From Botryllus schlosseri (lineage: Eukaryota), in NCBI GenBank assembly GCA_051294905.1, contig CM119372.1, positions 7,194,001 to 7,258,000 of the forward strand: 64,000 nucleotides of DNA. Reading direction: 5' to 3'. A model generated the notes under the pieces. The model did not search any database. It had not been told where the DNA came from and worked only from the letters and a program-made list of their open reading frames with translations. The position numbers were made by a program, and so were the translations under genes. Below, piece after piece: positions 7,726 to 53,700 of the stretch. The first letter of the stretch is position 1, and each line of letters starts with the position of its first letter.

Positions 7726-7727
7726 TA

Positions 7728-11203: not shown

Positions 11204-11456
11204 TAGGTTCGTCAATTAGATTAGCGGACCTGGACGCCTCTGCATTACCTTTTTCCTAGAATTCATGATCATTTCCTATAGAGAAAGGTTCAAGCGGGTA
11301 TTTATGTTAAAAACAATTTGTTTTTCTCGTATAATATCAGTTTCAATATGTATATTTCCATCACAGTCCCGTGAATTCAATAAATTCATTTGCGCATATA
11401 GAAACTGGATTTTTGACGGTCCGGAGTTCGTGGACGGGTTTTAGCTTCGAGCTATA

Positions 11457-17026: not shown

Positions 17027-17280
17027 ATGTACTGTACTGTGTACATGGAAACGCGGCCACCATTCCTGGGCTCATCCAATGCGGGCTGAGCCAAGTAGTG
17101 GCCGTGGCCGCACATGGAAACTATAGATAACTAACCTATGGATAGACACCAGAGATGGGCGGATTCCCGAATTTCGGGATCCGATTCGGTTAGTTATCTA
17201 CATGGAAACGCGCTGGTGGTACTGTTATTCCTAGCACCGACTCCGTTAAATGGACACTTGGTGGACCCATGACAATGCAT

Positions 17281-21341: not shown

Positions 21342-22046
21342 CAGGGCTGGCCAACCTTTTCAGCCAAAGGGCCACATTCGATTGACGAACTATTGCGCGG
21401 GCCACTATCCGCGCGAAGCGCGAAAATTTTTTGAAGTTCATAGGTCAATAATATTGTCACTTGACTATATTGCGTGCCTGCTGTATATCGCTGGGCTAAG
21501 TTTGCGAGGACTGGGCTATTCGGCGCATGGACATATCGATATCGAAAGCTGCGACCAACATGCGTCAATCATTCCGTGCCAAGGTTTCATAGTCGACGGT
21601 CTTACTGCGAGCGCAAACGCAAGGTCGCATATGTTGAACGACACTTTGTCTCGTAATCGTGAATATAGTTAGACTCAATCTGATACATTGGTGTTCTTCA
21701 ATTTTCACGAAAGGGCAACAATATTAAAAACAAGAAATCGAGTGACAACATATTGCGCTAAGCTTGTAGAAAATTTTTACCTCTGATAAATCTACCGCAA
21801 ATTATTCTGCTTTATTGTAGTGTACGAAGATATACCAATATGTGAATGGTTGATGGACCTGTCAATGAGTCGAAACTGATATTTTAGTCATCACATCTCA
21901 AGTGTTGCGGCCAGACCAATCAAATTTTTGGTTGTCCTTGCAAGTTCACAATCTGTGCCATCAAGTTTTGATGAGATTATTAATTTCGGAAATTACCTCG
22001 CGGGCCACTCAAAACCTTCTCGCGGGCCACGGGTTGGCCGGCCCTG
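21342..22046. mobile_element. hAT-Charlie-like MITE
   Basis: TIR cagggctggccaacc / ggttggccggccctg; TSD ctctacgg; internally homologous to 23956-24796. Confidence 0.9.
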
Positions 22047-29701: not shown

Positions 29702-32700
29702 GTGAGATATGGCTAGCCCATACTTTCAGATTCAGACGATGTTCACCGAAGCATTAGCTCTACGTTAACCGCAATCTTGAATCATTCAGGAAGCTCAGAC
29801 AGTTTACTTCGGAACACATCATGGCCAAAAGAAGATGACCGATCCATTAATAACGGTGTCAATTCTGGGTGAGAATACTTTCATTTTGTATGTTTTATGT
29901 TGGAATTTGCAAGGAATTTGGAAGTATGGAGAAAAGCGTTGCAATTTGTAAAATAATAATAGATAACTGAAGATATGTATTCAATTTATTGTGTTTGAAA
30001 TCAAAATGATACCGTAAACCGGGGTAACATTGGACAATTCTCAGCAATTCCGCTTTGTATCTTGGAAATGCTAGGGTGTAGGGGAGGCAAGTTTTGTGTT
30101 TTTTGGGTTCATGGAGCAAAGATTAGAATTAACTAATCCAAAATCTTCATATTCATAAATAAGTACCTTATTTTTGTAAATTATCCGTGTCCAAAGTTAC
30201 CCCTGCATGTGGGGTAACTTTGGACAGTGTAGTTTTCTGTATGCCTTTACACTCTATTGTTTATGAAACCCCGTAAATTAGGCTTATTTGGTAAGAGTTG
30301 ATGAGAGCAGTGACTAAAAATGAAACAAAATAGTATATGTCTGGCCTATTGCATGATTTTCAAATAATCCCCCTCAAACCCCCCCCCCCCCCCAAAAAAA
30401 AAAAAATTAGGTAGTTTATGAAGGCTAATGCCCCCTTATTCATCTCTTATCTCAATTTTCCATCATGCCTTCTCCAATTGGGACTTATAAATAACATATG
30501 GTGACAAGGGGTATCCCAATGGCGGTGTCAGCAATCGACAGCAAACATTAAGCATGTTAGCATGATTTATTACCGATTTCAAATATATTTGTTCTTGAAA
30601 AGATACATTTTCCCTTTCCTATGTCCTCTGATGGATATGTTTGTCGTAATTTACGATAACCCATATTCAGCAGGCGCATCTTTAGGAGTATGTGATAAGT
30701 TTTTCAAGTAGCTTACACCCGATTATAATCTCTCAGCTCATTGCCTACCCATTTTTTCGTATTTTGGCAAACTCTTAATTTATTAACCTTCTTAATCCAT
30801 TTTAAGAAGCCATCAGGCCGGTCATAAGGAATATAGTTGACGATACACTTTGACACAGATGAAGCAACCACTTTCCAGAGTTCTAAATATCACATTTTTC
30901 ACTGTCCAAAGTTGCCCTGTTCTGATAAAATTTGACGGGGTAACTTTGGACATCACATTTTCTTGTATTGATCTAAGGGTGAGCCCACTAAGATTTTTGC
31001 CATGGATTAAGACTACTTAGAGGTATCTGCTGCCAAGTTTTGAATCTATGAATCACATGCTATCTATGTTTGGTTGTAAGAAGTTTATTGGCCATAAATT
31101 TTGAGGAAATTGGCCCCCTCCATTAATTTATCAATGTTGGGTCAAGTTTATCTGGTAGTGAAATGAATCCACCTTTTATAGAGACTACTTGTAGTACTGT
31201 TGCCTCATGAAAAAGAATTGGACATCCAGCGATAACCCTTTTCCATCAATAACCATTTAAATCTTTTACTGCTTAGTGTCCAAAGTTACCCTTAAGTCCA
31301 AAGTTACCCCGGTTTACGGTAGCGTATATTGATAAATCACAGTTTTACGATCACAAGATCCAGTGATCCAGGAAAATTGACATAGTATATCTTCTATAAT
31401 GTTCAACATGTGTTGGCAGTCTGGACGTAGAATTGGAGTATTTGAATGGTACCGTTGAACGTTAATGAGGTGTTTACAGCTTTATCCTGTTCCCAATGCA
31501 TTAGTTACAATGTCAACAGCTACAGCTGGGCCTTCTTATGTAACTAACAGTCAAGTTTTTGGTTGCTCACTTATTTCCCCTACTTATCTGACCTTGTTTG
31601 CCGCCTAATTATGCGAATTTCTGTTCAACCCAACTGATAAAATGTAAAATTTCCACCAAGAAATTAGTAGATTGTTAATGGTGATTGCTTAAGCCAGGGG
31701 TCGCCAACTCAAAACAGGTCGCGGGCCACTTTTCAAATTTCCTACAGGCTGCATAGACTAACAACCATGTTTTTTAAACTTTACGTCAGTGTGCTCTCTA
31801 ACATTGGTGACGGGCATAGTTACCACAATAGAAATAATATCTTATTAACGAAATACAAATGCAACAAAAAATATTATTCTCATCACTTTCATTCTATTTT
31901 TAACCATAAGCGGCACACGATACCTGACAACACTTTTCAGCGACTAAAGAATCGATATTGGGGTTAGCTAGACACGATACTTGCTGGAAAGCAATCTCCC
32001 GGTAAAGTTTGATCTCGTGGGGAAGCCCCAAGTCGTTTTCAAAGCGACTTGGTCCTGTTGTTATCTGGGCCATTGCTCGTCAAGTCAATGCCCCCATTCA
32101 TATGAGGTAAATCTCCCTCCACGGGGTGCTGCTACTATAGCTGACGCCGTATCAGCTAGTAAGGAATAGTGATGTTAGGCACAAGAGAATAGCTTGTTTT
32201 GAACAGTGTTCAACAACAACAACAATTAATCAATTTTGGTATTTTAAAATGCTTTACTTGGCGTTCTTTCGAAATCTCCAATCAAGTCGCGGGCCACAAA
32301 ATATGACCACGAGAGCCGCATGCGGCCCGTGGGTCGCGTGTTCGTGACCCCTGGCTTAAGCACTATAAAGACACTGTTTATCAAACACGAACTACTAATG
32401 TTTTATCTACAAACCGAGCATGAACTTACATACATTGAATGCTTCGAAGTATAGGCCTACAGGGCGCATTAGTTTGTCACAAAATCTTTAGGGGCTCACC
32501 AAACCGAAAAAGTTTCAAGAGCACTGATCTAGAGAGTGTAACCGCTATGGAACTCTGACCTCCTAACACAAGACAGTTCATGAAGATGCACAGGGATGTC
32601 TCAAGACCCATCTAGATATCTTTGCTACCGTAAACCGGGGTAACTTTGGACAATTTTCAGCAATTCCGCTTTGTAACTTGGAAATGCTAGGGTGTAGGGG

Positions 32701-35700
32701 AAGCAAGTTTTGTGTTTTTCAGGGGTCATGGTGCAAAGATTAGAATTACCTAATCCAAAATCTTCATGGTCATAAATACGTACCTTATTTTTGTAAATTT
32801 TCCGTGTCCAAAGTTAGCCCTGCATGTGGGGTAACTTTGGACAATGTAGTTTTTTGTATGCCTTTATGCTCCATTGTTTATGAAACCTCATAAATGAAGC
32901 TTATTTGGTAAGAGTTGATGAGAGCAGTGGCTAAAACTGGAACAAAATAGTATATGTCTGGCCTATTGTATGATTTTTACCTAATCCCCCCCCCAAAAAA
33001 AATAAAAAATAAATTAGGTTGCGTATGAATGCTAATGCCCCCTTACTCATCTCTTATCTCAATTTTCCCTCGTGCCTTTCCTAATTGGGATATTTGGTGA
33101 TAAGGGGTATCCCACTGGCAGTGTCAGCAATCGACAGCAAACATTAAGCATGTTACCGTGATTTATTGCCGATTTCAAATATATTACTGTTCTTTAAAAT
33201 ATACACTTTCCCTTTCCCATGTCCTCTGATGGATATATTTGTCGTAATTTACGATTCAGCAGGCGCATCTTTAGTAGTATGTGATAAGTTTTTGAAGTAG
33301 CTTACACTCAATTACAATCTCTCAGTTCATAGCCAAATGGCTAACTCTTAATTTATTAACGTTCTCATTCCATTTTAAAAATCCACCAGGCCGGTAATAA
33401 GGAATATAGTTGACGATACACTTTGACACAGATGAAGCAGCCACTTTTCAGAGCTCTAAATATCACATTTTCCACTGTCCAAAGTTACCCCGTTCTGATC
33501 AAATTTGAGGGGGTAACTTTGGACATCACATCTTCTTGTATTGATTCAAGGGTGAGCCCACTGAGATTTTTGCCATGGATTAAGACTACTTAGAGGTATC
33601 TGCTGCCAAGTTTTGAATCTATGAATCACTTGCTATCTATGTTTGGTTGTAAGAAGTATAATGACCATTAATTTTGATGAAATTGACCCCCGCCATTAAT
33701 TATCAATGTTGGGTCAAGTTTATCTGGTAGTGAAATGAATCCACCTTTAATTGAGACTACTTGTGGTTCTGTTGCCTCATGAAAAAGAATTTGACATCCA
33801 GCGGCAACCCTTTTCCATCAATAACCATTTAAATCTTTTACTGCTTAGTATCCAAAGTTACCCTTAAGTCCAAGGTTACCCCGGTTTACGGTATTGCATT
33901 ATACAATTAGATGTCTATATTATTCCAAAAAATGACTAATGATATCCTAAGCCTAGCTATTGAAGATATGAAAGTGTCAAGCAGGAAATTTAGCCTACCA
34001 AATGATGTCCATAGTGTCTGTGTTCACACTGTAAATGATTATTATTTTGATGTCCTGTAATTCTACCTTTGCACCTATTGTCTTAGACATATATCTTAGG
34101 GATGGTGTGAACGTCAGGTTCACGTTCGCGTTCTGTGTGTGAACCTCAGAAATTTAGAGGTTCACGTTCACAAACAAACCTTGGTAGGTTCTGCACTGTG
34201 AACATTTTTCATATATAACGCAGTTTTCACTTCATTATAACGTCTTAGGTTAAAAGCTATTGCATTTCAACTGCGGGCCACTCTATGCATGGCGCTGGCA
34301 GCCTATAAAAATCAACACTAAACGATCATGCACCTTGACAATCTCAAAATTTTCGGCTGTGAGCTTGACCAGCAATCACACAACAGTCATACACTACAGA
34401 CTTACATGTAGGCAGTCAGCGAATGATGCTTATTGAACCAATCAATGAAATTGATATCGTCTGATGTAAAAGTTCTAGCAGGTGTAGGGGGTTAATCTGG
34501 ACTTCATATGTTTATTGTATCATAAAATCCAAATTCGTGCGGTTGGTGTTTTGGCTACTGCTGTATAACTTGTTAATGGAGTAATATCGGTAGTAAGAAT
34601 TGAAACCCATTTCACACTCTACTCAATATCAACTTAGCAATACTCAGACGCTGAATACATTGTCTGCTCTGGCTAAGACCGGGCGTAAGCTTACATTCCC
34701 GTGCAAGTAGGCCTACTCGACAAAATTGTTGGCAAAGCGACAGAAGATATTGATTTCATGGTCTGATCATTATATTATTTGATTGCCCCAGTTGATACAT
34801 CTGCCGACGTTTAAAAAGTTAATAAGTACTTCAGCATTGTGACATTATGTGGCTTTAGTCGTTTACTGGGCATCGTGTACAATCTGTACATTAATATAGG
34901 CTATCACTTCACCTAAATGTAGGATTGGAATTAGCAATATGACGCCACGTGACGTCATGAGGTTCACGTTCGCGTTCACACAGAACCTTTCAAAAAGGTT
35001 CACGTTCACACGAACCTGAACCTTTCAGAGGTTCACACCATCCCTAATATATATGAGTATAATTTCAATTACTAGCCCAGTGTTTCTCAACCCCGAGTCC
35101 GCGGACTCATTTGAGTCCGCGGAAGGTCCTGGGTGAGTCCGTGAACCCAGGAATTTTAAGTAACTTAATTTGCACACACGTTGACAGATTGTCAAACTTG
35201 TATTTCCTCGTGTTTTTCAATGAAAAGACGCCATTCTCATGGTGAATTTATTATTTTAGGTAATTTTATATCGACAAAACCTTACGAAACGATCATGGAT
35301 CCTAATTTAGGGGTGTAAGGACTTAGTTTTAGATTGAAAAGTCGAAAATCCACGGAAACGTCAAAATCTTCAACGTTTTCTTCCACTTCGGATATGATTT
35401 CGAAACATGTAATTGACAGACCTACGGGGCTCGTTCACTTTCGGACCAAAGTCATTGCAGCCTTACGGAGAAAATAGCTTTTTGGTCCGAAAGTGAATGA
35501 GCCCCGTTCTGGTCCGGTTTCGTCAAATTCCGATTTGAGATTAGGCTGCATGATTCGCAAAATACTTATTTTGAAATGTTAGTAACCTTAATAGCTTTCA
35601 TAAAAAATGCATAGATACCTCAAATATGTGACTGGCGGCATTCAACTTGAATAGTGCTTTCGGAACAATATTCATTGCAGTAGAATTTATTACCTCGGTG

Positions 35701-38700
35701 ACTTTTCGGGGAATTAAGGGCACCATAAAAAGGATAAAGAGTTTGTATACAATCTTTAAACATTCCAATAATATATTCAGCTGATCGTCTGTGTAGCGTC
35801 TTCTGAGTATTGTATAATTTGATTCTCTATTATCCCGTTGTTATGACTACCGCAGTACCGGTACAGCTGACTTTGGCCAGCTACTGTTCCTTTTTATCAT
35901 TGCATTGTAACGTCAAATTTTGCCAACATGGATTTCGTTTGAATCTCTTTCTATATGCTTCTTATTGTGCCGATAAGGGGCATACGAAATCCCTGCAAGT
36001 TAATAAATTATACTGCAGTGAATGTAGTTTTGAAAGCAATATTAGAGATACCCCAATAAGCGATGTTTGGCCACGTATATTTCAAACGCAAGAACAACGA
36101 AATAGCACCACTACAAATTGATCAGCATTCCAAGCATTATTGCTTCTCCTGAGATTTTCTGTGTCTTGGGCAAACCAGTTGGTTGCAAGTATCACAGGCA
36201 AAACGGGTATGCTTTGCACATCTGTCGCATCATCCTGGTTTGATACCAATCACGCCTGGTATAAAACCCCTATTATGGCCAACTGGAATTTTTCAAAATG
36301 CCCTACATTTATGTTCGAGGTAGCCTATTGCTAAAATTGTCATAAGCAACTCTATCACGGTCATAAACTCTACAATTTTGGTCGGATTGACTTGAATTTA
36401 GTAGGAATGGACTCGTAATTTAATGCTGCGTATTCACTATTCACAATTCACATACCGAATATGCCAGGTATAAACCCCTGGGACAGCTCTTTCTACACAC
36501 GTATGCAGGACCGTAACTGCCGTACCCCAAACCCCCATAATTTAGGGGGAAGCTCGAAGGGGGGCCAAAACTATTCGTGAATTAACATAAATTATAGGGT
36601 ATTTTTTGAAAACTTATGCAACTTTTTAGAAAAATAATATCATTATATCATTTTCCGAAACGCCTCACTCAGCTCGGCCGATAAATCTGAATGCATGAGC
36701 AGGGATAGCATAAAAAATTTACAGCTATATATATGCAATTCCCGATCATGTTGACCGATTCAATCATGAATTAGGGAATATTTTCGCGCTTCGCGCGGTT
36801 TATTCGAAATAAAGCGATCAAATGAACGGTACAAAAATTTAGCTGAGCAGTAGCGTTAAAAGGTATCGGAAGGGGGGTCTGGGTGTAAAGCCCGCCAGAA
36901 GTTAGGTTTATCTCCCTGTGGGGCCCAGGACCAACGTTTTGTTATTGAGGGGGGCTGACGAAGTGCTGTTACGGTCCTGCACGTAGGCACAATGCACAGG
37001 TTTCCGGCGGGATATACGCTGAGTGCTGGTAATTGATTATGGCGACTTGTTCACTTACAGACTATTTCGAAAATGACAAATCGTAGGGACATGTGCTAAT
37101 CACAGAAACAATCTATAGTTGTCTATTATAAGTAGAACTCGAGATGTGGACTGCATTACTGAACAGTTGCTTGAATTGCAAAGCCGACAGACAGATGTGG
37201 AAAGACAGGTTTACGAAAGCTTCCTTGACTCAATTTTAGCCAAATGTGCAGACGATGGAGCATAATCTCTCAGATCTTTGCTAGCAAGCTGCAACAGCTC
37301 TTTTGCTATTTCCGACCACATCACCTACCTGTGTGAATCTGGCTTTTCAACTCTGACGATGAGCAAAAGAAGTTTAGCAATAGACTTCAACCGGAAGATG
37401 ACATCAGATGTAGGCCTACATTGACAAACACAATTCCGGAATTCAATAGCCTTGTCAAGCGAGATCAAAGACAAGGCTCCCATTGAGCGTGGGTTGAGTG
37501 AAAAACAGTGCTTGTCTTTTTGTTGATACCGTATTACACTCTCTTGGATAGAAATAAAAAATAAACTGTTTTTCGGTAATATATAGCTTGAGTCCGCGGA
37601 TATACTGGCGAGCTTGAGATGAGTCCGCGGGTCAAAAAGGTTGAGAACCACTGGCCTAGAGCTACAATTCCGGTATCAGAGTGTCTAACTCTAAAAGTTA
37701 CATCGATTGCACGCAATAACTTTTCCCTGGCTATTGTACTTAGAGAGATATTGGCATACTTTGACATTTTGGGGGGTATGAAATTGACCAAGATTTCTCT
37801 ATGTTCCCGAAGGCCTAGAACAGTGTTTCTCAACCCCGAGTCCGCGGACTCATTTGAGTCCGCGGAAGGTCCTGGGTGAGTCCGCGAACCCAGGAATTTC
37901 AAGTAACTTAATTGGCACACACGTTGACAGATTGTCAAACTTGTATTTCCTCGTGTTTTTCAATGAAAAGACGCCATTCTCATGGTGAATTTATTATTTT
38001 AGGTAATTTTATATCGACAAAACCTTACGAAACGATCATGGATCCTAATTTAGGGGTGTACGGACTTAGGGTGGAGCCCAATTCTTCTCCTCAACTGAGT
38101 ACTGCTTAAATGCGAATCTCCACTCAACTAAAAATCGATTGGTACTCAGCGTTGAGTGCGCGCCAATTCTCTCTGCTCAGTTAAGTATCGATCTCCAGAC
38201 GTCGTTTTCCGAGATAGCGTTGCCAGATTTTTTTTCGCCGTCGGCCGGACACGCGTGAATGATTTTGTCATGACGACAGGACGCTGTTGTCGCTATTTCG
38301 TCACTGACCTACAAAGTAGACGCAGATCTCACTGATTTATCTCAATGCAATGAAAATTCTCAGCTGATCCACACTCTTTGAAGATGACACAATAGAAATA
38401 TATAAATCATTGAAGATACCCGGAACGTTCCTATGCCCCACAGAAGTATATTTTTGCAGACGTTACAAACCCGTTCGAAATTTATGAAGATAAGTTTCAC
38501 AGCAGGCGAACACGTAAGTGCAGGCCTGAAAGAACGAAAGAATGCATATATATCGTGAAAACAAATTGAAAAATCAACATATTTTCAGAATTTCTTTCTA
38601 TTTCTCTTTGAACCATTCACTTTTCCCCTCTATTATTCAACTTCCCGAAATACCCAGACCCACCCGACATTTTCTCTCTTAAATATTCAGTATTTTTTGT

Positions 38701-41700
38701 TTCCAATAGCTTATTGCTGCTATCGTCTAATTGGCTTGAAGATATAGTGACTCCATCCCAACACTGATATTGCTATGCAGGAACTCTATCAGCTGATCTA
38801 GGTTCTTGCTAGGGGTCTGTTCAAGATGCTTTATTGTCTATTTAATTGTGGGAAGAGCATGAGTAATATTAATAATAATCGTTAAGTTGTATTTTTCATC
38901 TGAAAAAGTCACACACAATGTAGAATGCGGCAAGACACAATGCGATGTAGTGAACAGGTTTGAGGATATCGAACGACACGCAGTTGCAGTCATTTTTTAT
39001 ACTGACATCCACCTCGGCCTAAGTGCCCGATGTCACAGTTCTTTTCGATGTTGATCTTTTTGAAGCCGCGGCCCTTTTTAGTTCTTTCCATTCGTTGTGA
39101 GTGCTTTCTTTCGTCGGGTCGGTTTCTGTGCTTTTTTGTCGCCGTAAGAACGGCGACGGCGGGGGATGCTAGCGCATTGAGACTACAGAAGTTACCATTC
39201 CGGTATACCGAGATGCCGTACGACAAGAAGTCGAAAGGGTACGGAAGATAATTACAAATACAATTATAAATACAACATCCGTATACAAGCGCCACTGATA
39301 TCATTCGCTCAGCAGAACCTCACATCACGTAATAGTGCGCCTACGACAATACCGGTACTCCGGTATTTGGCGGGTGTTGTCTGCAGTTGGCCGCTCGACC
39401 GTGAAAATTGACACTTAAGTCTGGTGGTGCGCTGACTTAGATTTGAGTGCCGATCCGGACGCATTTGAGTGTGAGTATACTTTTTGGCGCGAGTTGAGTA
39501 ATGAAATCGTTGCTGAGTAGAGAATCGCCACTCAGCAGAGAAATTGGGCTCCACCCTTAGTTTTAGATTGAAAAGTCGAAAATCCACGGAAACGTCAAAA
39601 TCTTCAACGTTTTCTTCCACTTCGGATATGATTTCGAAACATGTAATTGACAGACCTACGGGGCTCGTTCACTTTCGGACCAAAGTCATTGCAGCCTTAC
39701 GGAGAAAATAGCTTTTTGGTCCGAAAGTGAATGAGCCCCGTTCTGGTCCGGTTTCGTCAAATTCCGATTTGAGATTAGGCTGCATGATTCGCAAAATACT
39801 TATTTTGAAATGTTAGTAACCTTAATAGCTTTCATAAAAAATGCATAGATACCTCAAATATGTGACTGGCGGCATTCAACTTGAATAGTGCTTTCGGAAC
39901 AATATTCATTGCAGTAGAATTTATTACCTCGGTGACTTTTCGGGGAATTAAGGGCACCATAAAAAGGATAAAGAGTTTGTATACAATCTTTAAACATTCC
40001 AATAATATATTCAGCTGATCGTCTGTGTAGCGTCTTCTGAGTATTGAATAATTTGATTCTCTATTATCCCGTTGTTATGACTACCGCAGTACCGGTACAG
40101 CTGACTTTGGCCAGCTACTGTTCCTTTTTATCATTGCATTGTAACGTCAAATTTTGCCAACATGGATTTCGTTTGAATCTCTTTCTATATGCTTCTTATT
40201 GTGCCGATAAGGGGCATACGAAATCCCTGCAAGTTAATAAATTATACTGCAGTGAATGTAGTTTTGAAAGCAATATTAGAGATACCCCAATAAGCGATGT
40301 TTGGCCACGTATATTTCAAACGCAAGAACAACGAAATAGCACCACTACAAATTGATCAGCATTCCAAGCATTATTGCTTCTCCTGAGATTTTCTGTGTCT
40401 TGGGCAAACCAGTTGGTTGCAAGTATCACAGGCAAAACGGGTATGCTTTGCACATCTGTCGCATCATCCTGGTTTGATACCAATCACGCCTGGTATAAAA
40501 CCCCTATTATGGCCAACTGGAATTTTTCAAAATGCCCTACATTTATGTTCGAGGTAGCCTATTGCTAAAATTGTCATAAGCAACTCTATCACGGTCATAA
40601 ACTCTACAATTTTGGTCGGATTGACTTGAATTTAGTAGGAATGGACTCGTAATTTAATGCTGCGTATTCACTATTCACAATTCACATACCGAATATGCCA
40701 GGTATAAACCCCTGGGACAGCTCTTTCTACACACGTATGCAGGACCGTAACTGCCGTACCCCAAACCCCCATAATTTAGGGGGGAGCTCGAAGGGGGGCC
40801 AAAACTATTCGTGAATTAACATAAATTATAGGGTATTTTTTGAAAACTTATGCAACTTTTTAGAAAAATAATATCATTATATCATTTTCCGAAACGCCTC
40901 ACTCAGCTCGGCCGATAAATCTGAATGCATGAGCAGGGATAGCATAAAAAATTTACAGCTATATATATGCAATTCCCGATCATGTTGACCGATTCAATCA
41001 TGAATTAGGGAATATTTTCGCGCTTCGCGCGGTTTATTCGAAATAAATCGATCAAATGAACGGTACAAAAATTTAGCTGAGCAGTAGCGTTAAAAGGTAT
41101 CGGAAGGGGGGTCCGGGTGTAAAGCCCGCCAGAAGTTAGGTTTATCGCCCTGTGGGGCCCAGGACCAACGTTTTGTTATTGAGGGGGGCTGACGAAGTGC
41201 TGTTACGGTCCTGCACGTAGGCACAATGCACAGGTTTCCGGCGGGATATACGCTGAGTGCTGGAAATTGATTATGGCGACTTGTTCACTTACAGACTATT
41301 TCGAAAATGACAAATCGTAGGGACATGTGCTAATCACAGAAACAATCTATAGTTGTCTATTATAAGTAGAACTCGAGATGTGGACTGCATTACTGAACAG
41401 TTGCTTGAATTGCAAAGCCGACAGACAGATGTGGAAAGACAGGTTTACGAAAGCTTCCTTGACTCAATTTTAGCCAAATGTGCAGACGATGGAGCATAAT
41501 CTCTCAGATCTTTGCTAGCAAGCTGCAACAGCTCTTTTGCTATTTCCGACCACATCACCTACCTGTGTGAATCTGGCTTTTCAACTCTGACGATGAGCAA
41601 AAGAAGTTTAGCAATAGACTTCAACCGGAAGATGACATCAGATGTAGGCCTACATTGACAAACACAATTCCGGAATTCAATAGCCTTGTCAAGCGAGATC

Positions 41701-44700
41701 AAAGACAAGGCTCCCATTGAGCGTGGGTTGAGTGAAAAACAGTGCTTGTCTTTTTGTTGATACCGTATTACACTCTCTTGGATAGAAATAAAAAATAAAC
41801 TGTTTTTCGGTAATATATAGCTTGAGTCCGCGGATATACTGGCGAGCTTGAGATGAGTCCGCGGGTCAAAAAGGTTGAGAACCACTGTACTAGCCTATTG
41901 ATTTGCAGCCTACCTATTGTTTGCTCGTACTGATGATTTATAGATTCTGATAACATTTGTCTTGTAAATGAATAATAATAATCATTACCCATAACAAGAA
42001 ATCATATCATGCAGTGGTATACCGTACTACTACACTACTTAGTATGCCATGTTGGTGATATTTGAGAATGCTAGAGAAATTCGCAATGCTGGTAATCGCC
42101 TTATGAGCAACTGTTTTTAAATCAATGAAATTTCTTTTTTCATTCTATGGAAGTATTTGTGTGCGGTCTCTATAAAAATGGTGTTATATGTCGAAATGTT
42201 ATACACATTGAAATTTTGCCGCGAGCAGTATCGAAGAAAATAGGTTGTCTTCGCCTCTGTGACTTTTAGCTGTGTTGCAGCTTATTCTGTGCCCAGGGGC
42301 ATGAAATTAGTCATATTCTCTTGAAACGAAACTATATATTTCATTGATTAGTTTTCAATGTATTTTAGGCCATTGCTATCGTCTGGAGAATTTTATGGCA
42401 ACGGACAAATATCTGCTTCTCATTACGCATTAGCAACGGCTTATGACAGGGTATCCAAGAAGCTGGCCGAAGCTGAGAAGCGAAATCTGCAACTCAGGCA
42501 AGAAGCTAGCCTGAGAGATCCAGTAAGTTTTGCAATGTGCCAATTTGAGTCGACATTGGTGTGCCATTTGCTAATCTTTTAAGCTTTGTTGTTGAAGTAC
42601 CATGCTATGTCAGTTAGAGAGTATGTTATCTTGTCAGTGGCCAGTTCAATCTAACATATGATACTGTTTACTGAGTTAGTTTACCTGTTGTCATTTCAAG
42701 TTTAGGTTTCTCTATGTGGTGGTTTGTTGGTTATTATTTGAGCAAATCTAGTATTTATTATGCACGCACATTGATATTTGTTTCCTGAATCATTGCAAGG
42801 CGCAATACACTCAATACAGTATGACAAGCATGTAATATGTATCTATAGCAGTAGTGCCATTTCTACATTATAAATTACTGCTCCAATGGTATTCAATCTG
42901 GTGATTGAGGCTTTTATTATATAATGGGGAATGAAATATCTATATCAGTGTACTGTTGCAGGGCTGAGTCATCATCTTTTTCTTGACTGTTTATTGAAAT
43001 ACTCACTTGACTAAGTGATGTCCATATTATTGCATGACTTTTCGTTTCATAAGGACGAGGTAGATCACAGTATTCGATCAGATTAGCTGGTTTTCAATTA
43101 TAGAGCGGAATTTGATATCCTGTAAGTTAACATATTTCTCAATTCATGACAAAATCCAATCAGGTGTGGGTACTACTGATGCTGAAGATATACTAGTCCT
43201 TGGCTGCATCCCTATGTCTCATTTCTGACATATTGGTTTCACCCATATGTAGCTGTCTCTAATGTATGACTTTTATGCAGTAAGTCAGTGTGGCATCGGT
43301 ATTCACCACCATGAAGCACAATTGTTGTAAGCCAGTTACCGTAATTTGATCATGTACAGAGATTACTTTTGATAGCAATTGAGCAAAGGACAACAGAGCT
43401 GGCTCTGAACCGGTTTCACGACTAGGCTTGTGATGCCAAAAAGTCACTGGTAACTCTCAAGTCTCATTTCAAACTAACTTATTTACACTGATGATACATT
43501 GCAATGATACGCTGCATATGAGAGAATGACATGTGTTGATTTCTATGGAATTGTTGCTTAATATTACTGGCTTGTGGCTTTGTATTTATTGCATTGGTGT
43601 ATTGTAGTGACACAAAATCAATCGCCAAATACCGACTGCCGGTAGGCATTGATACTTGATACCTTCACTATGTCGTGCGTTTGATTACATTATCATAACG
43701 GTGATGTGATTTTCACTTGCGGCCGTCTGGCAGAAGGTTGCAAGCCGTCATTTTCAGTAAGCATCGAAAACGCTCATTGCACTGTCAGTACTATGTTGAC
43801 TTGGTGCTAAGGCATGCGTCTTGTTGTCAGTTTGAGATTACATTTGTGTGGAATGCTGGAGCTTTATGACCCAGGTTCGGTGGTGTCAGACTGTCTACTA
43901 AGGGAATGTTATAGATTTGGCATATCACCTTATAGTATGACTGGTTGTAATACTATTTCATTCAATTTCTAGTCGTATTCACCAAGAATGTCCTCTTCTC
44001 AAGCAAGCTACGCGTTACCATCAAATCTACAGGACAGTGTCAACCAAGCCTGGGAAGCTTACAATGAAAAGTGCAAGGAATGTCAGCAGTTACGGGAAGA
44101 GCTGAAGGAAGTAAAACACCGAGTAAACAACAGTACTGTAAGTCATCTTTCACAGTTTTGATCCGAGGAATTGATTTTCAATAAACTCCCAGTGGTGGCT
44201 GTACTGAGGTTTCAGTTTCAGATGAGATGAAAAATCACATGTATAGATTATTATCTCGCCAGTTTATCAACTAAATAATGATGCAGTTGGTTATGTGACA
44301 AAGCTGAAATGATACCACAAATGTTGACACCTATTGAAACAGTCTCTATGCTCCAGTTTGGTTTTATTACAATTATGCATCATTGCATTGTTTCTGTCTG
44401 TTAAAATATTGAAATTATTTGCTTTCTGGACTGTATTTTTCTACGCAATTCGCATATTAATGAAACCTAGCATGATTTGGGATCAGGTGTAGCCTACCTA
44501 TAAAGATTTGAGTTCTATGTATGTCATTCCACCAATTCAGTGATTACATTTGTCAATTTTTGGTTGTTTTTGGTAGTCTTTCCCGGGAGAATTATTAATA
44601 AGTCGAGATCAAAGCCATGTAGGCCTACTGGTGCAGTGCCAAACATATTTGTATAAATTTTTCCGAGTTTATTATTCTTCAGTGTCTTGTGATGTTCATG

Positions 44701-47700
44701 GTTAGACGATTTCATCAGTGACGTTTTATGTGTAATACGATTGTTGATATTGATCTACAAAGTTTTTCCAATTCTCTACTAGTTGCTGACGATTACTCCT
44801 GATTAGTGTCAGCCGAAAATATTTGGGTTCATTTCAAGGTGTTCTGCGGATTTTACTTCAATGATGTTGTCAATTCAAATAGCCGTTATTTCCCTGAGCC
44901 TAAATGTTTTGCGTTTCATTGCCATTATTGATCTATTCCGGCAGGTTCAAATCATTCTTGGACCATTCTTCCTGTATTCTCTGTTTGGTTGACTTCATCA
45001 TTATCAGTCAATTGAATTAAGACAAAAGTATGATGTTCGAGATCTGTGATGACTCAATTCTCACTTGATGCTAACTACAAGGTAACAGCGGCACACGAAA
45101 ATACGGCCGTGATGTGCTTCATTCAATATCACGATGTGGTAGCAATGAATTTCAAAAAGCTCTGCGCTATTTTCATGTCTTTAGATCAGGGGTGGGCAAA
45201 CTACGGCCCGCAAACTACACCATTCTGTGCGGCCCGCAAGAGTCTAAAGAAACTTATTTAAAATATTGATAAAATGCGTACTGAAAATCGAAATAATGCA
45301 GGGACTTCATTAAACTTTTTCCTAGTATATATCACTATGATAATTATAAGGCAGTGGTTCCCAAACTGGGGGCGGGGGCATAAAAGCATCTGAAGGGGGG
45401 CTCGAAGCTGAGCTTAACTGAAAATTTTTTTCGCGATACGCGCTATTTACATCCCGTTCATCATTTGCTCTGCATTTAGTATGAATTTCATATCTAAAAA
45501 TCTCTCATCCACAGTCGTAACCTTCCATGCCACCAAACTATCCGTTAGGTTTACTAGCATCCTGGTTGCGTTTTGTGATATGACGATAAGGGGGCGCGAA
45601 ATCTTTTACCATCATAAGGATGGGCATGTTCTAAAAAGTATGAGAACCACTGTTCTAAGGTAAATACCTCCTATATTATTTTTTATGTTTAATTTCTGGC
45701 GTGTCAGCCCGACTGCTTTCAACTGCTAAACATCACAGAAATCTGAAACGAGATTGACGGATCACGAGTGTGATTTCAGATTGGCAACTCCTGTTTTAAT
45801 TAATTCAGTGATGTGCTTATAAAAATCAAATTTGCGCGTGTGTTAGGTAGATTCGTTCTCTGGATGCGTAGAATTGGGGTATATATATATTATTTACACA
45901 TAGTAGAAGCGTGTTTGAAGCTAACATGGTTATGATGCTGTCAGCATTGTGTGTCCTGGAACTGAACCAAAAGTGGATTTAGTAAATCTATGAACAGATC
46001 GCTGCTCACAGATTTAAATTTCAATCCTGTTCCAAGAATCGAGACAACCGACTTTCATCTCTATAATTTTGACAAATTGGTTATTGAGGTCGACCAGTCT
46101 ATAAAATTCCGCCACTGTTTCTGACGCGTGTACGATATCATCAAAGCAATGTTTGGATTGTTTCATATAAGCATATATATTATCTCCATGTCATCACTAT
46201 ATAATCAAATACCAATATTGCGCTTTGGTTTTTAATCACAATTTTATATAGTGTGGCCCGCGAATGGATTCAGATGTTGACTGCGGGCCGCGAGCTCAAA
46301 AGTTTGCCCACCCCTGCTTTAGATGGTAACAACAATCCTTGCATTCCATCTGTTTTTTCTGTCTCAATTTTCAAGGGACGAGCATTTGCTTGCGGCTTTA
46401 CTTCTACCGGGGTCTGCCGACCAAGGTATGAGGCTTTCGGTGTACGAAGGCCGAGTTGTTGGAAAGGAAATGAAAAGATCCTTGCTGTAATGTCTGCTTG
46501 CCTTACCTTACCTTATGGAAGCATCTGCCCCGATTTCAGCACTCCAGCGAAATCCAAAATCTCCAAGAAGATGTCTTGCGTGAAAAAGCAAAACAGGACG
46601 ACGTCACGAGGAGACTGGAGAAGACAAAAATGGAGGCTGACCACCTAGAGAAGAAGGAAATCTTGGCTCGGGAAGAGTTGGAAAAAGAGAGGGTGAGCTT
46701 GATATTCTCGAGATGTCCGAATTCGAATGACGGTTTTCATCCTATATTTGCTAGCTTGTTGTGATGTACAGGCAGGCAACATTTCACACTTGAATGAGAA
46801 TGTATTTTGATGTTTAGTAAAATAAGTAACTCTTGTCTAAATGGTCATTACATAGTCTTGCTATGTTCATAAAGTTATATGGCTCAGTGAGACAGTTACA
46901 GTGACTGCGTACTAAAACATTAAAATATTTCCAGGCAACCAGCTGTAGTGTGGTTTTACCTTGACAAAAATTCAGACTCTTGCTTGAATCACTACAGAAG
47001 TAATGAAATACGTATGATACATATTTTAATTCTTGGATAGCGGTATACATTCTCATTTAATTGGTCACATGTTGAAAATCCGGGGTACATTAACCTTATT
47101 GACGATGCTGCAGCTCCTAGTTTTTTTCACTATGTCCTGCATTACTATAGGCCTACTACATATAGTGACTACCAGAGTTGGTAGGTAGCGGAGTACCAGT
47201 TTTTGGAGTACCGTAACACGGGGTGACTTTAGCACTGCCGGGTGACTTTGGCCGAAAACCAATATTCGTTTCTATTGCACACATCGAACAATATATCGAT
47301 GTATGAGTACTTTGAGCAATTGTTTAGGAACAATCTGCATCAATAGAGTACTATTAATGCAAATTTCATGGTTGATACAACACTTTTACATGTTCGCAGC
47401 CATTTTTATATTGACAGGTATGGTGAGAAATTTCACCACACTTTTTACGTACTCAAACTTTTGTTTGGTTTACATGCAAAGTAGGTGTTTGAGGCAAATT
47501 CCTTTGATTTGCAGACAAAGGCTATGTATCTGACAGCATTTCTGGGGTTTTATGGGCGAAACTACAGTTCATTATTTCAAGATTGTCAAAATCATGTGGC
47601 TGATCAATTTTTTAAATTTTTTGCAATTTATGGGGTGACTTTGGCCAGCTATTTAGAGTCAGCTAAAATGGGTATTTTTTGAATCAAGATTAATCTTAGC

Positions 47701-50700
47701 ATTTGTATCTTCTAAATAATTAAATGCCAAGGAAATATAGAAGAAATCTTGGTGCCAGGAGTTGTATAGACTACTCCGCAGATGAGATCCAAGCGGCACT
47801 AAGAATGGTCGAGGAAGGAATGTCGGAAAGATCTGTTAGTGAAATAACTGGTATTCCGAGAGGGACTTTACAGAATAAAAGGATAGGAAAGCATCCGAAA
47901 TCACCAGGAGGCCAGCCTGTTTTATCGTCAGATATGGAATAGCAGACCATTGTATGGTGCAGGCAGATTTTGGATTTCCTGTAGACAAATTTTGTCTTGG
48001 GAAAAGTATCTCGAGAGAGGAGGTTGCCAGGATAATTGCTATACAAGAGGAGAAGAAGGCTTCAAAACGGAAGAAAAAATGGTGACCAACCATCAACATC
48101 CCAACAAAAATGAGTTGAATTAGTCACAAGCACTCAACATGAAAGTCATGACGATTCTTCAGGAGCAGAAAATTTCCAAGAAGATTTATGTAATGATGTA
48201 GTTGAAGTGGGAGCATTAGAAAAGGAATTGAGAGCAAAACTAAAAGCTGGCCAGTAGGCCTATGTAATAATTAAGTATAAGGGAGAATTATTTCCAGGTG
48301 CTGTGGAGAGTACAGAACAGCATGGTGCAGAAGTCAGTGTTATGCAAAAATCAGGAAGCAATTGGAAATGGCCAATTCAAAAAGACCAGATATGCTATTA
48401 CTGGAAAGATATTAAACAGAGAATCTGCGACCCGGACTCACTGAATGCTCGTGAAATCTACAAAGTGAATGAACTTGAAGGGCATTGGCATTGAACTACT
48501 TTTTGTCATTGGTTTGTTTAATTTCGTTGTAATTTTGAAGATTTTTGTGGTTTTGCATTCAAATTAAAGTCTGAAAAATCACCATTGGTTGGATACTTCT
48601 TTTTTAAAAGACTGTAGATGGCCAAAGTCAACTTCTCAGCTTGTGTCATTGACAAATATGACTGCTAGATGTCCTGGAAGTACAAAAAATGGTGCTCGGC
48701 TAAAGACACCCCATTGCCGGGTGACTTTGGCCACCACAAAAAAATTGAAAAAAAATTATCAAAAACATGTGAATAATTTTCTTTTCCAAGTTTAATCCAT
48801 AGATCTAACCCTTCCGCCCATAGCAAAGTTGAAGAAGGCAGAAAATAATAACATATCATAAAATAATTCAACATTGAATGTGAAAAGTGGTACAAAGTCA
48901 CCCCGTGTTACGGTACCATACTCCAATAGGTTTTACTTACTCGGTTATCTTACTGAAGTGGCTGATGGTCATGTTTATAGATTACTTTCACCCCTAGTTA
49001 TCAGTTTTTTAAGGAAAACTACACTTTTTTATTTGGGAAAGTCAAAAGTAGCATAGGTATACGTTAGATTCACTTTTATGTGTCCAATTTTTTAAACATT
49101 TGGTTGAAATAGCCGAATTGTATCACAGTAACTGAATATATGCTCCTAGTTGTAGAGTCGTTAGTCAATTTGCCGCGTCCGTAGCGTAAATGCTCTTTGC
49201 AATTTCGAAAATAGCCTCCTCCAATTACTGTGAAAAGAGTAGGACCCCTCGTCCAATTCTAGGTTTTTGGGTATTAGTTACCTGAATACTTTTTTCAGAC
49301 CTGGATTTCTCTACTTATTCGTGCAGTAGTTTTACATGTTTTGAAAGTTGCTCCTTTGAAGAGTAATTGAGTAGAAATTTATGACGTCACATCGTCACTT
49401 CTACTGCTATTTGAGTAGGCCTACCAATGCCGACTACTTTGATCATTTCCGCTGCGTCGTGGCAATGTTGCACATCCACCGCCTAAATCGGTGGTTCTTG
49501 ACCCTTACGTTAATTTGCAAAACTTTGGCGGATCCCAAATTTTTGCTGAGTTCTCAAAACAAAAATCTACTATATTACACATCCGATACATTACTACACA
49601 ATACTGGTGCAAAAAAATGAACAGTGCATCAAGAACGGTGTTAAATGAGCTAAACCGTTAGAACACGATCTTCAAACAAAACTAAAACATTGTAATGAAT
49701 ATTTACTTCTAATCAGCGAGACTTGACCTCCTCTGAATCATTGGCTCAGCAAACTCCTCGGTTTCATTTTGTCAAAATCAATAACAAGCTGCTGACTTTT
49801 CCGGACAGGAATATCAGAAGAATCTGATACAGATCGCAGAGAAGAAACACAATGAGATGGAACAACGGATCGAGGAACTGGAACGAGGCCTGGCGAACGA
49901 GGTACGAATTTCGACGGAAGCAGTGCGATGCCTAGAATCCGTGCATGTTGTTTCCCGCATTTGTAGAAAAGCCTGACGGAGGATTTACGAATGCGCGAAC
50001 AAGACCGGGCCATAGCGCTGGAAGAGGAATTTCTTGTGAAGCAGGACACTTTCAAAACGAAAATCCGGGAACTTGAGGAGCATAATATTTCGTTGCGGGT
50101 GAAAATGACTTGTTGTGATATTTGTACAGTTAGAAAATTACCCCCCCTGATGGACCTGTAAAGCTTATTACTTGGATTAGTTTCGAACGTATGTTAGTTA
50201 GATATGCAGTACGGTATTTGTAACTTTTCATTTGCTTGTCTGCCTCTCATCCGGTTTAGACTGTGATAAAGATGACAATGGTGATGCGTGGTTCAATTGG
50301 TATTCGTTCTTCTTCCAAGCATGTGCCCTCTCTACTACCTCATCCTTCTGCTATATTCTGTAGCAACTATAGTTGCAATTTGTGATTTTGACTCGATAAA
50401 ATCGGTTGCACCGCATATATTTGAAATTTGATAATATATTAATATATTAATATTGAAATCAACCTGAATATTTTCGGCCGACACTCGTCATGGGTAATCG
50501 TCAGCAACATCGAAAGAAATGAAGCGAACATTGTGCAACAAATATCATGTATAATCCTCTGTTTCTCCTTCTCGCATTGCAACCTGATTCTTTTGTTTAT
50601 GACAGGAAGAGGTGGCCGTTTTAATATCAATGCAAACGGGAAACTCAAACCCTAGCGGTCCCGGTTCGAGGCCGTTTGTAAATGGAACTTCACCCAATCC

Positions 50701-53700
50701 CTCCACACAATATGAGAGGTTAGTTGCTATCTGCGAGGCACCCGTCTCGATATACGCCTTATTTTGTACAGTATATGCATATTGAAATAAACCCAAATGT
50801 TTTCGGCTGACACTCATCATGGGTAATCGTCAACAACTAGCGGAGAATTGTAGTTGTTGTAATCGTAATCATTACCCCTGACGATTGTGTGCTATTTTAT
50901 TGTATGTTGAAGTTCTGTACCTGCAAGAAGACTTTATTTTGTAATTTAGCAACTTGGACATTTCTACATTGGAAGAGGAGATTCGTAATCTCAATTCGGA
51001 GTTGAGCGACCTCAAGAAAAGGGCAAATGAACAATCGCAACTGCTAACAAGCTTATTCCAGAATACAAAACTTAGTACACTATTAGAAACGATGCCCGAT
51101 ATACCTCCATTCAGATCAGGTTTGCATAGTTCTCAGTGCTTGCTTTTCGCCGTGTAGTGTACATTATCATAAATTAAACCTGTATTCTGCGATTATATCT
51201 GGGGAATTGATACTGAGTTAACGTATTTGGAGTAAATATAGGGCTGGATTTGATGGAAATATCATGAATGAGTAGTGAGTTATATTGGTAGCAACCCGCA
51301 ACTGATATCTATTTTTAGACCCGCTTGGTTGTCTCTGATGATAAATGTTTAGGGGATTTCCCTGCCTGATACAATTCATAGCATAAGGACTTGTGTTGAC
51401 TGTTGATAGAAGCTTGAGACAAAGTGCGTATGCCTACAATGACACAAGTACTGAGCATCATTGTTCTCGGATGTGAATGTTTTCTGTGGGTAGTACATGG
51501 CCCATGGTAGGCCTTGGGTTTAGCGTCATTTGAAATTACTTATTTGTAAGTAATTCCGGATTGTACATTAGGGCTCTTCAAAAATGACTTTTTTCTCAAA
51601 TCGCACTGGCTACTTGATAAAATTGTTAGGTTACCTAATTTAAGCCTACACACCAAATTTGGTTCAATTCCAACCAGTGGAAGCGGAGTTATTGCTGTCG
51701 AAAAATTTGGATTTTAATAAAATAGTATTTACGGTGGGCACCACCATAATAAATAATTAAAGACATTGTCACCGTAAATACTATTTTATTCATAATCCAA
51801 ATTTTTCGACGGCAATAACTCCGCTTCCACTGGTTGGAATTGAACCAAATTTGGTGAACATCGTTTCTATAGACAACCCAACACTTTCATGGGGTGAACA
51901 GAAAATTTTCAAATTTTTTGGTATTTATTTTTATATAATAAATAGAAACTTTGTTCTCCTGTATTAATGCGGCTACTGCTTCGAATTGAACCAAATTTGG
52001 TATTTAGGCTTAAATTAGGTAACCTAACAATTTTATCAAGTAGCCAGTGCGATTTGAGAAAAACAGACATTTTTGAAGAGCCCTATTGTACATGTTCGTA
52101 CAAGCTACTCCTGGTAGTGGTATTTAATCTCCGTTACAAGTACCGGTAATGTATTTGATGATGTCATGCATTTAAGCTGATTGATTCACGATTGATCAAC
52201 ATTTCCTTCGGCAAAACATGAAATAGGCGTATAATTCAAAATTATCATCTCAAGTTCATTCATGAATCTGCAATTATTTTCATGAAAACGTAACTGTTTT
52301 GTTGTAAATTGAGTACGGTACAGTAAAGTTTTTGTGCTGCAGGCAGTGAAAAACCGTCCTTGTTATTATGACGATTATGGCGAAAGTTGTGAACTGTTGT
52401 TGCCTTCATTTGTTTGGTCTGTTTTAAATTTATCGCCTATTTAGTAGTGATATGTAGGTCATGGTAGGACTTGGCAAATTTGAGTTACCTTGACAGAGGT
52501 AAAGATTATGTGCAAATTCTGTCAGTATACCTCTGAAATTCACTGTGTCTGGATATACCACTCGTATTGTGAACCTAACATTTATTGGTTTACTTGATGA
52601 TATTTCGAGTATAATGGCCGCAGAGGTATTCAATCTTGTCACCAATGTAAGTTGTCAACTGACCATTACACTGGAAATACCACGACCATCGAAAGCAATT
52701 TTTTACCTGTATCTTCAGTTTTTCTTTCTCTCCATTAGCATATCGTGAAATCTGTTGATCATGAGTTCAAGTATCATATGTGCTGTTTGGATGATCACAA
52801 AAATTGAAATGATCCGACTGACCTAGTGTGTGGATTGTTGGACGATGGACATCCTTGTTGCTGTATACGTAGGCTATAGTCGTTGTTCATAATATGGCGA
52901 ATCGTTTAACTTCCGACTTCGCAAATTCTACCGATGATTCGCGCAATTTGCGTGAAAGCTATGTCGATTAGAAATATAATCTGTTGAAACAATCTTACCT
53001 AGATCCTTTGCCACAATGTCGCAATCCAGGGTTGTGCGTGCGTCAAAAAATCAACTCCTCGCCGAAGATTAGCAGGAGAGCTGCTAACAGCAACGAGTTG
53101 GCGGGCGGCAGCCATTCGCTATCTCGAAAAGACTCTCGCGAACTTATGTTGACCGAGGACGCGGCGTCAAAGCAAAAAATTTTGAAACTTCATGACGGGG
53201 GTCCTTCCATCATGTCCACCGAGGAATTCATCCGGTCGCTAGATCAGGAAGGAAATATTCAAGTGAGTTAGGTCACGGAGATATTGTAATCGTAAAGTTT
53301 ATAGCTCGGGCTGGGCGTGATATTCTGTGGAGTATGGAGTATTCATTCTAATGTTTTCAGCTAAGTAGTGATCGAGCTAGTTTTCTCTACTACCTAACTA
53401 AATTATACGCTCCTGGACACAGAGAGTTTATTTATCAACCATAATTCTAATTTCAATAGCCTATTTCCCACCTGTGAAAGCCTTGAAACCTCAATTGGTC
53501 GTATCGCAGCATACTGAATGTGTTGTACAAAGCAACGCACGTTAGTGTAAATGACATTACTGTGAAGTCGTGGTCAACTGACAGCATTGCTACGAAGTGC
53601 AATGAAATATGCAAGTTTGAAAAATACCTAAGTATCTTTAATGTGATGTATAACTGGCCTTATACCTAGGCTAGTTGTGGTAGCGTAAAGGATACATGTT

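What the first reader, a model, noticed from the sequence alone, without database searches (positions are those of the whole stretch)
35070..41895. 6.8-kb composite hAT transposon with permuted target-site duplications
Seen: two near-identical, same-orientation Charlie-type copies (A 35078-37653, B 37821-41887; about ten substitutions spotted by eye) separated by 167 bp. Neither copy has its own matching TSD. The outer flanks match perfectly (tactagcc at 35070-35077 and 41888-41895) and the inner flanks match each other at 7/8 (gcctagag after A, gcctagaa before B). Inference: an element and its donor flanks were tandemly duplicated or circularised, then the pair moved as one unit using the outer ends and captured the spacer, like a bacterial composite Tn or a maize Ac macrotransposon. 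An alternative is integration of a donor-locus circle by homologous recombination into a resident copy.
Basis: partly seen in the sequence, partly recalled or inferred. Interest (0 to 1): 0.7.

Follow-up and report, generated by a model that had tools for sequence, protein, structure and literature searches.

The report
Transposon pair carrying one satellite unit
Two sibling copies of a cut-and-paste jumping gene enclose exactly one unit of a very abundant tandem (satellite) repeat and share one insertion scar, so they most likely jumped together out of a satellite array and carried a piece of it into a gene-containing region.

Summary
A (35078-37653) and B (37821-41887) are non-autonomous Buster-type hAT copies that differ by 10 substitutions and a 1.49-kb Harbinger-like insert in B. 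The outer 8-mers match 8/8 and the inner ones 7/8. The 167-bp spacer is not unique donor DNA: it is one 159-bp monomer plus 8 bp of a head-to-tail repeat. In public contigs its summed depth is 5.7-8.6 million against 16-112 for the unique flank, and its end runs into its own start. The 'permuted TSD' is therefore the same site in two adjacent monomers. Best reading: a hAT copy inside a satellite array became a pair one monomer apart, and the pair was pasted here by its outer ends, like an Ac macrotransposon (0.5). Rivals: sister-chromatid insertion resolved in register within the satellite (0.3), circle recombination (0.1), mis-assembly (0.05). Donor, empty site and three of four junctions were not seen in reads. 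This scan noted a similar unit before on other DNA of this genome (e1-7786846, two 177-bp monomers; unchecked). New variant of a known kind.

The parts
35070..35077 (.). Left copy of the 8-bp target-site duplication of the whole unit (TACTAGCC)
   Evidence: identical to 41888-41895
35078..37653 (+). Copy A: non-autonomous Buster/Charlie-type hAT element, 2576 bp, 15-bp imperfect TIRs (14/15), subterminal GAGTCCGCG motifs, nested small repeats inside
37119..37523 (+). Decayed 3' end of a transposase gene in A (stops and frameshifts; CESGFS motif, recalled as hAT dimerisation domain)
   Evidence: no Pfam hit; Atlas lead ZBED5 family/PF05699 at 0.88
37654..37820 (.). Spacer: one 159-bp satellite monomer (37662-37820) plus the repeated 8-bp target; GCCTAGAG at the start, GCCTAGAA at the end
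   Evidence: depth 5.7M (X1) and 8.6M (X2) in bin 37600-37786; joint 37820->37662 going back 159; loose ends that continue the spacer's end into its start
37821..41887 (+). Copy B: same element as A (10 substitutions) with a nested insert
38069..39556 (.). 1488-bp non-autonomous PIF/Harbinger-like insert in B only; 15-bp perfect TIRs beginning GGGTGGAG, TTA duplication
   Evidence: the empty form (joint skipping 1491 bp) in contigs of X1, X2 and X16
41888..41895 (.). Right copy of the 8-bp target-site duplication (TACTAGCC)
   Evidence: contigs of X1 and X2 run from B's last 19-24 bases into the right flank (records 6 and 24)

Best explanation
A non-autonomous Buster-type hAT element inserted at the GCCTAGAN site of a 159-bp satellite array. 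Inside the array it became two copies one monomer apart, either by in-register unequal exchange between monomers (duplicating element plus one monomer) or by a local hop of a daughter copy into the same site of the next monomer. A transposase supplied in trans then paired A's left end with B's right end, cut out the 6.8-kb unit and pasted it here, making the TACTAGCC duplication and carrying one satellite monomer along. Shown: the structure, the single outer TSD, the spacer being one in-register monomer of a very abundant head-to-tail repeat, and A and B being close siblings within a large family. Inferred: the donor array, the existence of the pair before the jump, and the transposase step itself.
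For: Perfect 8-bp outer duplication and no TSD for either copy alone. Spacer = 159-bp period + 8 bp; contigs join its end to its start: loose ends before 37653 in 132 (X1), 277 (X2) and 6 (X6) records and behind 37821 in 272, 186 and 1; joint going back 159 in 3 and 11 contigs. Depth 5.7M and 8.6M against 16-33 and 100-112 in the unique flank. The monomer has one CTAG, at the junction, and the new target also has a CTAG core. Of 27 listed differences between B's hAT part and other family copies, A carries B's letter at 24, so A and B come from one recent lineage. Ac macrotransposons excise and reinsert with 8-bp TSDs (PMC9910405, passages). Satellite arrays expand by unequal exchange (PMC7403614, passages), and target preference makes TE dimers (review PMC12628747, passages).
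Against: No listed contig covers the A-spacer, spacer-B or left junctions, and the right junction has only 19-24 letters on the element side, below the tool's 31. No empty-site allele appeared among the rows shown (24 of 2,522 loose ends). The sister-chromatid model gives the same product. A one-monomer spacer leaves little homology for unequal exchange. The difference table shows 40 of 500 rows, chosen by the tool.
Confidence: 0.5

Rival explanations
1. Sister-chromatid (hybrid-element) insertion. One copy sat in the satellite array. After replication the transposase took the left end from one chromatid and the right end from the sister and joined both to this target. The two satellite-bearing arms were then joined by homologous repair in register, leaving one monomer between the copies. 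No pair existed before; the unit was born here, like a maize Composite Insertion.
For: Predicts exactly TSD-element-donor flank/donor flank-element-TSD. Hybrid element insertion from one site on sister chromatids gives identical copies (PMC2775673, passages). Three of six sequenced maize Composite Insertions were closed by homologous recombination between repeats (PMC4270019, passages). A satellite offers such homology every 159 bp. A and B are siblings.
Against: All 10 substitutions and the Harbinger difference must have arisen after insertion. The two inner 8-mers would be the two copies of one donor TSD and must have diverged by mutation. It needs a translocation-like intermediate to be resolved. 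Nothing selects for a spacer as short as one monomer.
Confidence: 0.3
2. Recombination into a resident copy. A single copy with the TACTAGCC duplication was here first. A circle of element plus one monomer, popped out of a satellite array, recombined into it (or an ectopic gene conversion copied the same DNA). No transposase acted on the pair.
For: Gives the same order of 8-mers. Satellite eccDNA and its reintegration are discussed as a route of spread (PMC7403614; PMC3411249; passages). Exchanged TSDs mark ectopic recombination in Galileo inversions (PMC2775673).
Against: Resident and donor would have to be parent and daughter: A shares B's letter at 24 of 27 listed sites spread from 37890 to 41854, while most family copies differ. 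It needs three events rather than two.
Confidence: 0.1
3. Assembly artefact: the assembler passed through the repeated element into a satellite-embedded paralogue and back.
For: No listed contig spans the unit or the inner junctions; the best run holds only 0.62 of the sampled words.
Against: A and B differ by 10 substitutions and a clean Harbinger insert with its own TSD; the spacer is exactly in register; the outer TSD is perfect. An element-monomer-element junction would still have to exist somewhere. The right flank matches the contigs without a substitution.
Confidence: 0.05

Closest known systems
Ac/Ds macrotransposons of maize (PMC9910405, passages read; Huang and Dooner 2008 and Wang et al. 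2022 only as cited there)
   Same: Outer ends of two hAT elements move together with the DNA between them; 8-bp TSD around the whole unit.
   Different: Here a natural animal case with two complete non-autonomous Buster-type copies, and the cargo is exactly one satellite monomer in register; no movement was observed.
Composite Insertions from reversed-end or sister-chromatid transposition of Ac (PMC4270019; 10.1101/2020.01.07.897926; passages read) and hybrid element insertion (PMC2775673, passages read)
   Same: Element ends outside, copied donor flanks inside, one TSD; the inner join can be made by homologous recombination between repeats.
   Different: The maize cases start from Ac plus a fractured Ac, carry kilobases of genic flank and often come with duplications or deletions. 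Here both copies are whole, the inner join has no scar, and the cargo is 167 bp.
TE-borne satellite repeats: Helentron-carried Cg170 of oyster (PMC7492417, listing only; PMC5139131, abstract), TCAST transposon-like elements (PMC3411249, passages), Xenopus miDNA4 (as described in review PMC12628747, passages)
   Same: A mobile element carries satellite monomers into euchromatin.
   Different: In those cases the repeat lies inside one element or in its TIRs and spreads with the family. Here it lies between two complete copies, bounded by their former target sites, and only one such unit is seen in this window.
Pack-TIRs of animals (PMC8277862, passages read)
   Same: Host DNA of 100-5000 bp flanked by TIR elements of one family.
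   Different: Pack-TIRs are explained by gap-filling or template switching into an element; the word satellite does not occur in that paper's main text. Here four intact termini and repeated target 8-mers point to two whole copies.
Tandem TE dimers of Drosophila (McGurk and Barbash 2018, only as described in review PMC12628747)
   Same: Target preference puts two copies side by side.
   Different: Those dimers share one target site; here there are two different target sequences and a monomer between the copies.

Membership tests
hAT superfamily, Buster (Charlie) family | 8-bp target-site duplication | tested here: met
   Met for the unit as a whole (8/8 outer pair); not for either copy alone. 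Feature from PMC3517528.
hAT superfamily, Buster (Charlie) family | Short TIRs (5-27 bp) | tested here: met
   15-bp termini, 14 of 15 complementary, in both copies.
hAT superfamily, Buster (Charlie) family | Target consensus nnnTAnnn | tested here: met
   All three 8-mers (TACTAGCC, GCCTAGAG, GCCTAGAA) fit; consensus from PMC3517528.
hAT superfamily, Buster (Charlie) family | Homology to a Buster transposase | tested here: inconclusive
   No hAT Pfam hit for 5 of 5 stop-free fragments at E<=10. Atlas rank 4 is a ZBED5-family cluster (PF05699 in 21% of members) at 0.88, a lead only. The CESGFS motif is recognised from recall.
Autonomous hAT element | Intact transposase frame | tested here: not met
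   Longest stop-free frames touching A are 104-141 aa; the transposase-like stretch is broken by stops and frameshifts.
Macrotransposon (Ac type) | Outer ends of two elements bound one insertion with one TSD | tested here: met
Macrotransposon (Ac type) | The two elements were linked at a donor site before the move | not testable with these tools
   No genome held; no listed contig shows a copy within a satellite array (tables cut).
Macrotransposon (Ac type) | Empty-site allele or excision footprint | tested here: inconclusive
   None among the rows shown; X2's contig runs unbroken from 41864 into the flank. One sample only gave flank coverage at the junction.
Composite Insertion (alternative transposition) | Inner junction joining two copied donor flanks by NHEJ or homologous recombination | tested here: inconclusive
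   No scar: the spacer is one continuous monomer. Compatible with in-register recombination, but also with no junction at all.
Composite Insertion (alternative transposition) | Donor element retained, with or without linked duplication or deletion | not testable with these tools
   No genome held.
Satellite DNA (spacer) | Head-to-tail tandem organisation | tested here: met
   Joint going back 159 and loose ends in X1, X2 and X6.
Satellite DNA (spacer) | Very high copy number | tested here: met
   Depth 16-290 times that of the hAT bins and about 1e5 times the unique flank; rough bounds 5e3 to 5e5 monomers. The tool warns that summed depth is not a copy number.
Satellite DNA (spacer) | Long heterochromatic or centromeric arrays | not testable with these tools
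   Contigs are short; short arrays inside another mobile element are not excluded.
PIF/Harbinger (insert in B) | TTA/TAA duplication and short G-started TIRs (recalled) | tested here: met
   TTA on both sides, 15-bp perfect TIRs, empty site in A. No transposase hit in 4 of 4 frames scanned.

The most novel reading that the evidence does not exclude
In this animal, hAT elements that land in major satellite arrays are repeatedly turned into two-copy composite units holding a whole number of monomers, and are exported by the transposase into gene regions. That would be a recurrent cut-and-paste route for seeding a major (possibly centromeric) satellite in euchromatin, distinct from eccDNA reintegration and from Helitron or MITE capture. 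It rests on this unit (one 159-bp monomer), on an unchecked second unit in the same genome (two 177-bp monomers), and on one contig hinting that 159 and 177 are length variants of one family.
Probability: 0.35. Interest if true: 0.72.

Novelty: new variant of a known kind. Interest (0 to 1): 0.5.

Why it matters
How single satellite monomers get out of their arrays into gene regions is an open question; the routes discussed in the papers read are eccDNA reintegration, gene conversion and capture inside Helitrons or MITEs. This locus keeps the whole record of another route: the cargo is bounded by the transposon's old target sites and the unit by a new TSD. It also gives a natural animal example of macrotransposition or composite insertion, known mainly from maize genetics. 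The pattern (outer TSD, inner 8-mers a whole number of monomers apart) can be searched for in any complete assembly. It is one fossil locus with no shown effect on a gene, which limits the interest.

Tried and rejected
Whole-genome search for donor and relatives: no genome held. Spacer against the rest of the window: no second match at E<=1. Rfam: 0 matches in the window. Exact 22-nt spacer motif: 0 matches in metagenome contigs and 0 in viral contigs. Earlier notes by sequence: nothing for the spacer or for A; nothing near this place. Pfam on the transposase remnant: no hAT hit; comparison with the window's PF05699 remnant was marginal (E 0.026). Two independent insertions here: rejected, each would have its own TSD. 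Spacer as two fused unique flanks: rejected, it is one continuous monomer. Horizontal transfer to organisms B, C, D (0.06-0.14 of words): not claimed; X6, the only one laid, covers the repeats and none of the unique flank, as traces of this animal's DNA or a relative's would. The 37820->37662 joint was not used to decide whether the A variant of the 8-mer exists in arrays, because the aligner's placement is ambiguous there. Host gene: not identified (weak Pfam hits; generic coiled-coil hits). The macrotransposon paper PMC9339288 is not held. A centromere atlas (10.64898/2026.09.17.752431) had one passage on a plant 159-bp repeat, not relevant.
Full report
OBSERVATION. The window is repeat-rich eukaryotic DNA of about 40% GC with short open frames; no whole genome is held. 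A (35078-37653, 2576 bp) and B (37821-41887, 4067 bp) align end to end with 10 substitutions and one 1491-bp gap. The gap is a 1488-bp insert at 38069-39556 with perfect 15-bp TIRs and a TTA duplication, empty in A; I call it PIF/Harbinger-like from recall. The outer 8-mers are identical (TACTAGCC), the inner ones match at 7 of 8 (GCCTAGAG, GCCTAGAA), and neither copy has its own pair. An 8/8 match by chance is 2e-5, or 4.5e-3 with the CTAG core given.

THE ELEMENT. Both copies have 15-bp termini that are complementary at 14 positions. All three 8-mers fit nnnTAnnn, the Buster consensus given in PMC3517528 (passages). Four other CAG-ended elements in the window have intact 8-bp TSDs of the same type, out of 8 candidate pairs I checked. 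The 3' part of A holds a broken transposase-like stretch. Pfam gave no hAT hit for 5 of 5 fragments, and the Atlas gave a ZBED5-family cluster at 0.88, a lead only. The element is non-autonomous. Depth shows a family of at least tens to hundreds of copies.

THE SPACER. It has no second match in the window. The run search listed 24 runs, all as short contigs; the best held 0.62 of the words. Summed depth in the spacer bin was 5,700,448 (X1), 8,641,280 (X2), 224,803 (X16) and 24,332 (X6). The hAT bins had 24,020-164,337 (X1) and 29,753-547,434 (X2); the unique right flank had 16-33 (X1) and 100-112 (X2). Contigs that reach the spacer's left edge continue with the spacer's own right end (132, 277 and 6 records in X1, X2, X6), and those at its right edge continue with its own start (272, 186 and 1). 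A joint going back 159 bases is listed in 3 (X1) and 11 (X2) contigs. The spacer is thus one 159-bp monomer of a head-to-tail repeat plus 8 bp. Rough bounds are 5e3 to 5e5 monomers; the tool warns that summed depth is no copy number. Whether the arrays are long or centromeric is not shown. The monomer holds one CTAG, at the junction with the elements, among 14 nnnTAnnn sites on this strand. The inner 'TSD' is therefore the same target in two successive monomers.

KINSHIP OF A AND B. One search shows 40 of 500 difference rows; 27 lie in B's hAT part and 13 in the insert. A carries B's letter at 24 of the 27 and the other copies' letter at 3. Counting by eye only rows where the other letter has at least 60% of depth in both X1 and X2 leaves 22, of which 19 are shared by A and B. 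So A and B are siblings from one lineage, not two random family members. The insert has 11 of 13 such rows, a density like that of the hAT part (11/1491 against 22/2576, Fisher p 0.86) and above the B-only density (3/2576, p 0.002). It may predate the A/B split and have left A cleanly, or come from an already diverged parent. The rows are a tool-chosen subset, so I give this little weight.

WHAT THE READS DO NOT SHOW. Only 24 of 2,522 loose ends, 15 of 189 joints and 32 of 158,371 pieces were printed. None covers the A-spacer or spacer-B junction. The right junction is in one contig each of X1 (41869-42298, 0 substitutions, 1 gap) and X2 (41864-43200, no difference), with 19 and 24 letters on the element side, short of the 31 needed to count as bridging. 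No empty site and no element-in-array donor appeared. The assembly is therefore not independently confirmed.

MECHANISM. Every model must place a copy in a satellite array at GCCTAGAN. Best (0.5): the copy became a pair one monomer apart, by in-register unequal exchange or a local hop, and the pair moved by its outer ends. This needs two ordinary steps, and short units should move more easily (inference). Maize macrotransposons excise and reinsert with 8-bp TSDs (PMC9910405, passages). Second (0.3): left and right ends taken from sister chromatids and joined to this target, then closed by recombination in the satellite. Hybrid element insertion is described in PMC2775673 (passages); three of six sequenced Composite Insertions were closed by homologous recombination (PMC4270019, passages; see also 10.1101/2020.01.07.897926, passages). 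The product is the same, and my data cannot separate these two; together they give 0.8 for one transposase-made insertion. Third (0.1): a circle of element plus monomer recombined into a resident copy; the shared private letters require that resident to be the donor's daughter. Fourth (0.05): mis-assembly.

COMPARISON WITH WHAT IS KNOWN. It works like an Ac macrotransposon or Composite Insertion; the structural criteria are met and the donor criteria could not be tested. Satellite spread by mobile elements is known from Helentrons (PMC7492417, listing only; PMC5139131, abstract), from TCAST elements (PMC3411249, passages) and from MITEs (review PMC12628747, passages); eccDNA and gene conversion are the routes weighed in PMC7403614 (passages). 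Pack-TIRs (PMC8277862, passages) are explained by capture into an element. Nine searches listed no paper whose title or abstract start describes two whole DNA transposons bracketing an integral satellite monomer. The library lacks most subscription papers, PMC9339288 was not held, and I read no supplements, so this is not proof of absence.

EARLIER NOTES. After forming this reading I found an unchecked note on another piece of the same genome: two identical hAT copies around two 177-bp satellite monomers with one scar (e1-7786846), and one on two different hAT copies with 576 bp between them (e1-7786480). I could not test either, and look-ups by sequence with A and with the spacer found nothing, so the elements may be of other families. 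One X6 contig has 29 letters where the spacer has 11 (37775-37785), which would make a 177-bp unit; a single contig is a hint only.

CONTEXT AND VERDICT. Exon-like coiled-coil frames start about 470 bp right of the unit on the + strand; the gene was not identified and an intronic position is not shown. The feature is real as assembled, and more specific than first read: a hAT pair that carried one satellite monomer. It is a new variant of a known kind. Interest 0.5; about 0.7 if a genome-wide scan shows that it recurs.

Noticed in passing
window 7270-7727 and 11454-11911: Two 100% identical 458-bp copies 4.2 kb apart, with CACTAC-A-run inverted termini and TA on both sides of each: a very young CACTA-like MITE, perhaps a local hop.
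   Followed up: partly
   Followed up: partly
window 38069-39556: The Harbinger-like insert in B seems to carry more private letters than its place on the B branch alone predicts; unexplained.
   Followed up: partly
window 17275-19365: Foldback-like element: inverted arms of 15-bp subrepeats around a centre rich in TTAGGG-like units at 18156-18486.
   Followed up: no
window 30007-31321 and 32623-33893: Direct duplication of about 1.3 kb at 88% identity; related pieces lie inverted at 56936-57513.
   Followed up: no
window 16316-16611, 21342-22046, 31695-32353, 45187-46316: Other CAG-ended hAT MITEs with perfect 8-bp nnnTAnnn TSDs; the last holds a nested one at 45352-45652.
   Followed up: partly
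window 34097-35046: TAGGGATG-ended hAT-like MITE with a 7/8 TSD ends 23 bp left of the unit's TSD.
   Followed up: no
window 13991-14254 (+): Remnant of another hAT transposase, PF05699 at E 9e-9.
   Followed up: no
window 42352-61291 (+): Several exon-like coiled-coil frames and an autophagy-receptor-type C2H2 zinc finger at 61046-61291 (PF18112, E 1.7e-4, just under the cut-off): possibly one host gene.
   Followed up: partly
window 35407-35516 and 35650-36043: Small palindromic and inverted-arm repeats nested in A and B; the first also occurs at 11112-11221.
   Followed up: no
window 59840-60321: Inverted repeat with 175-180-bp arms at 98% identity around 122 bp.
   Followed up: no
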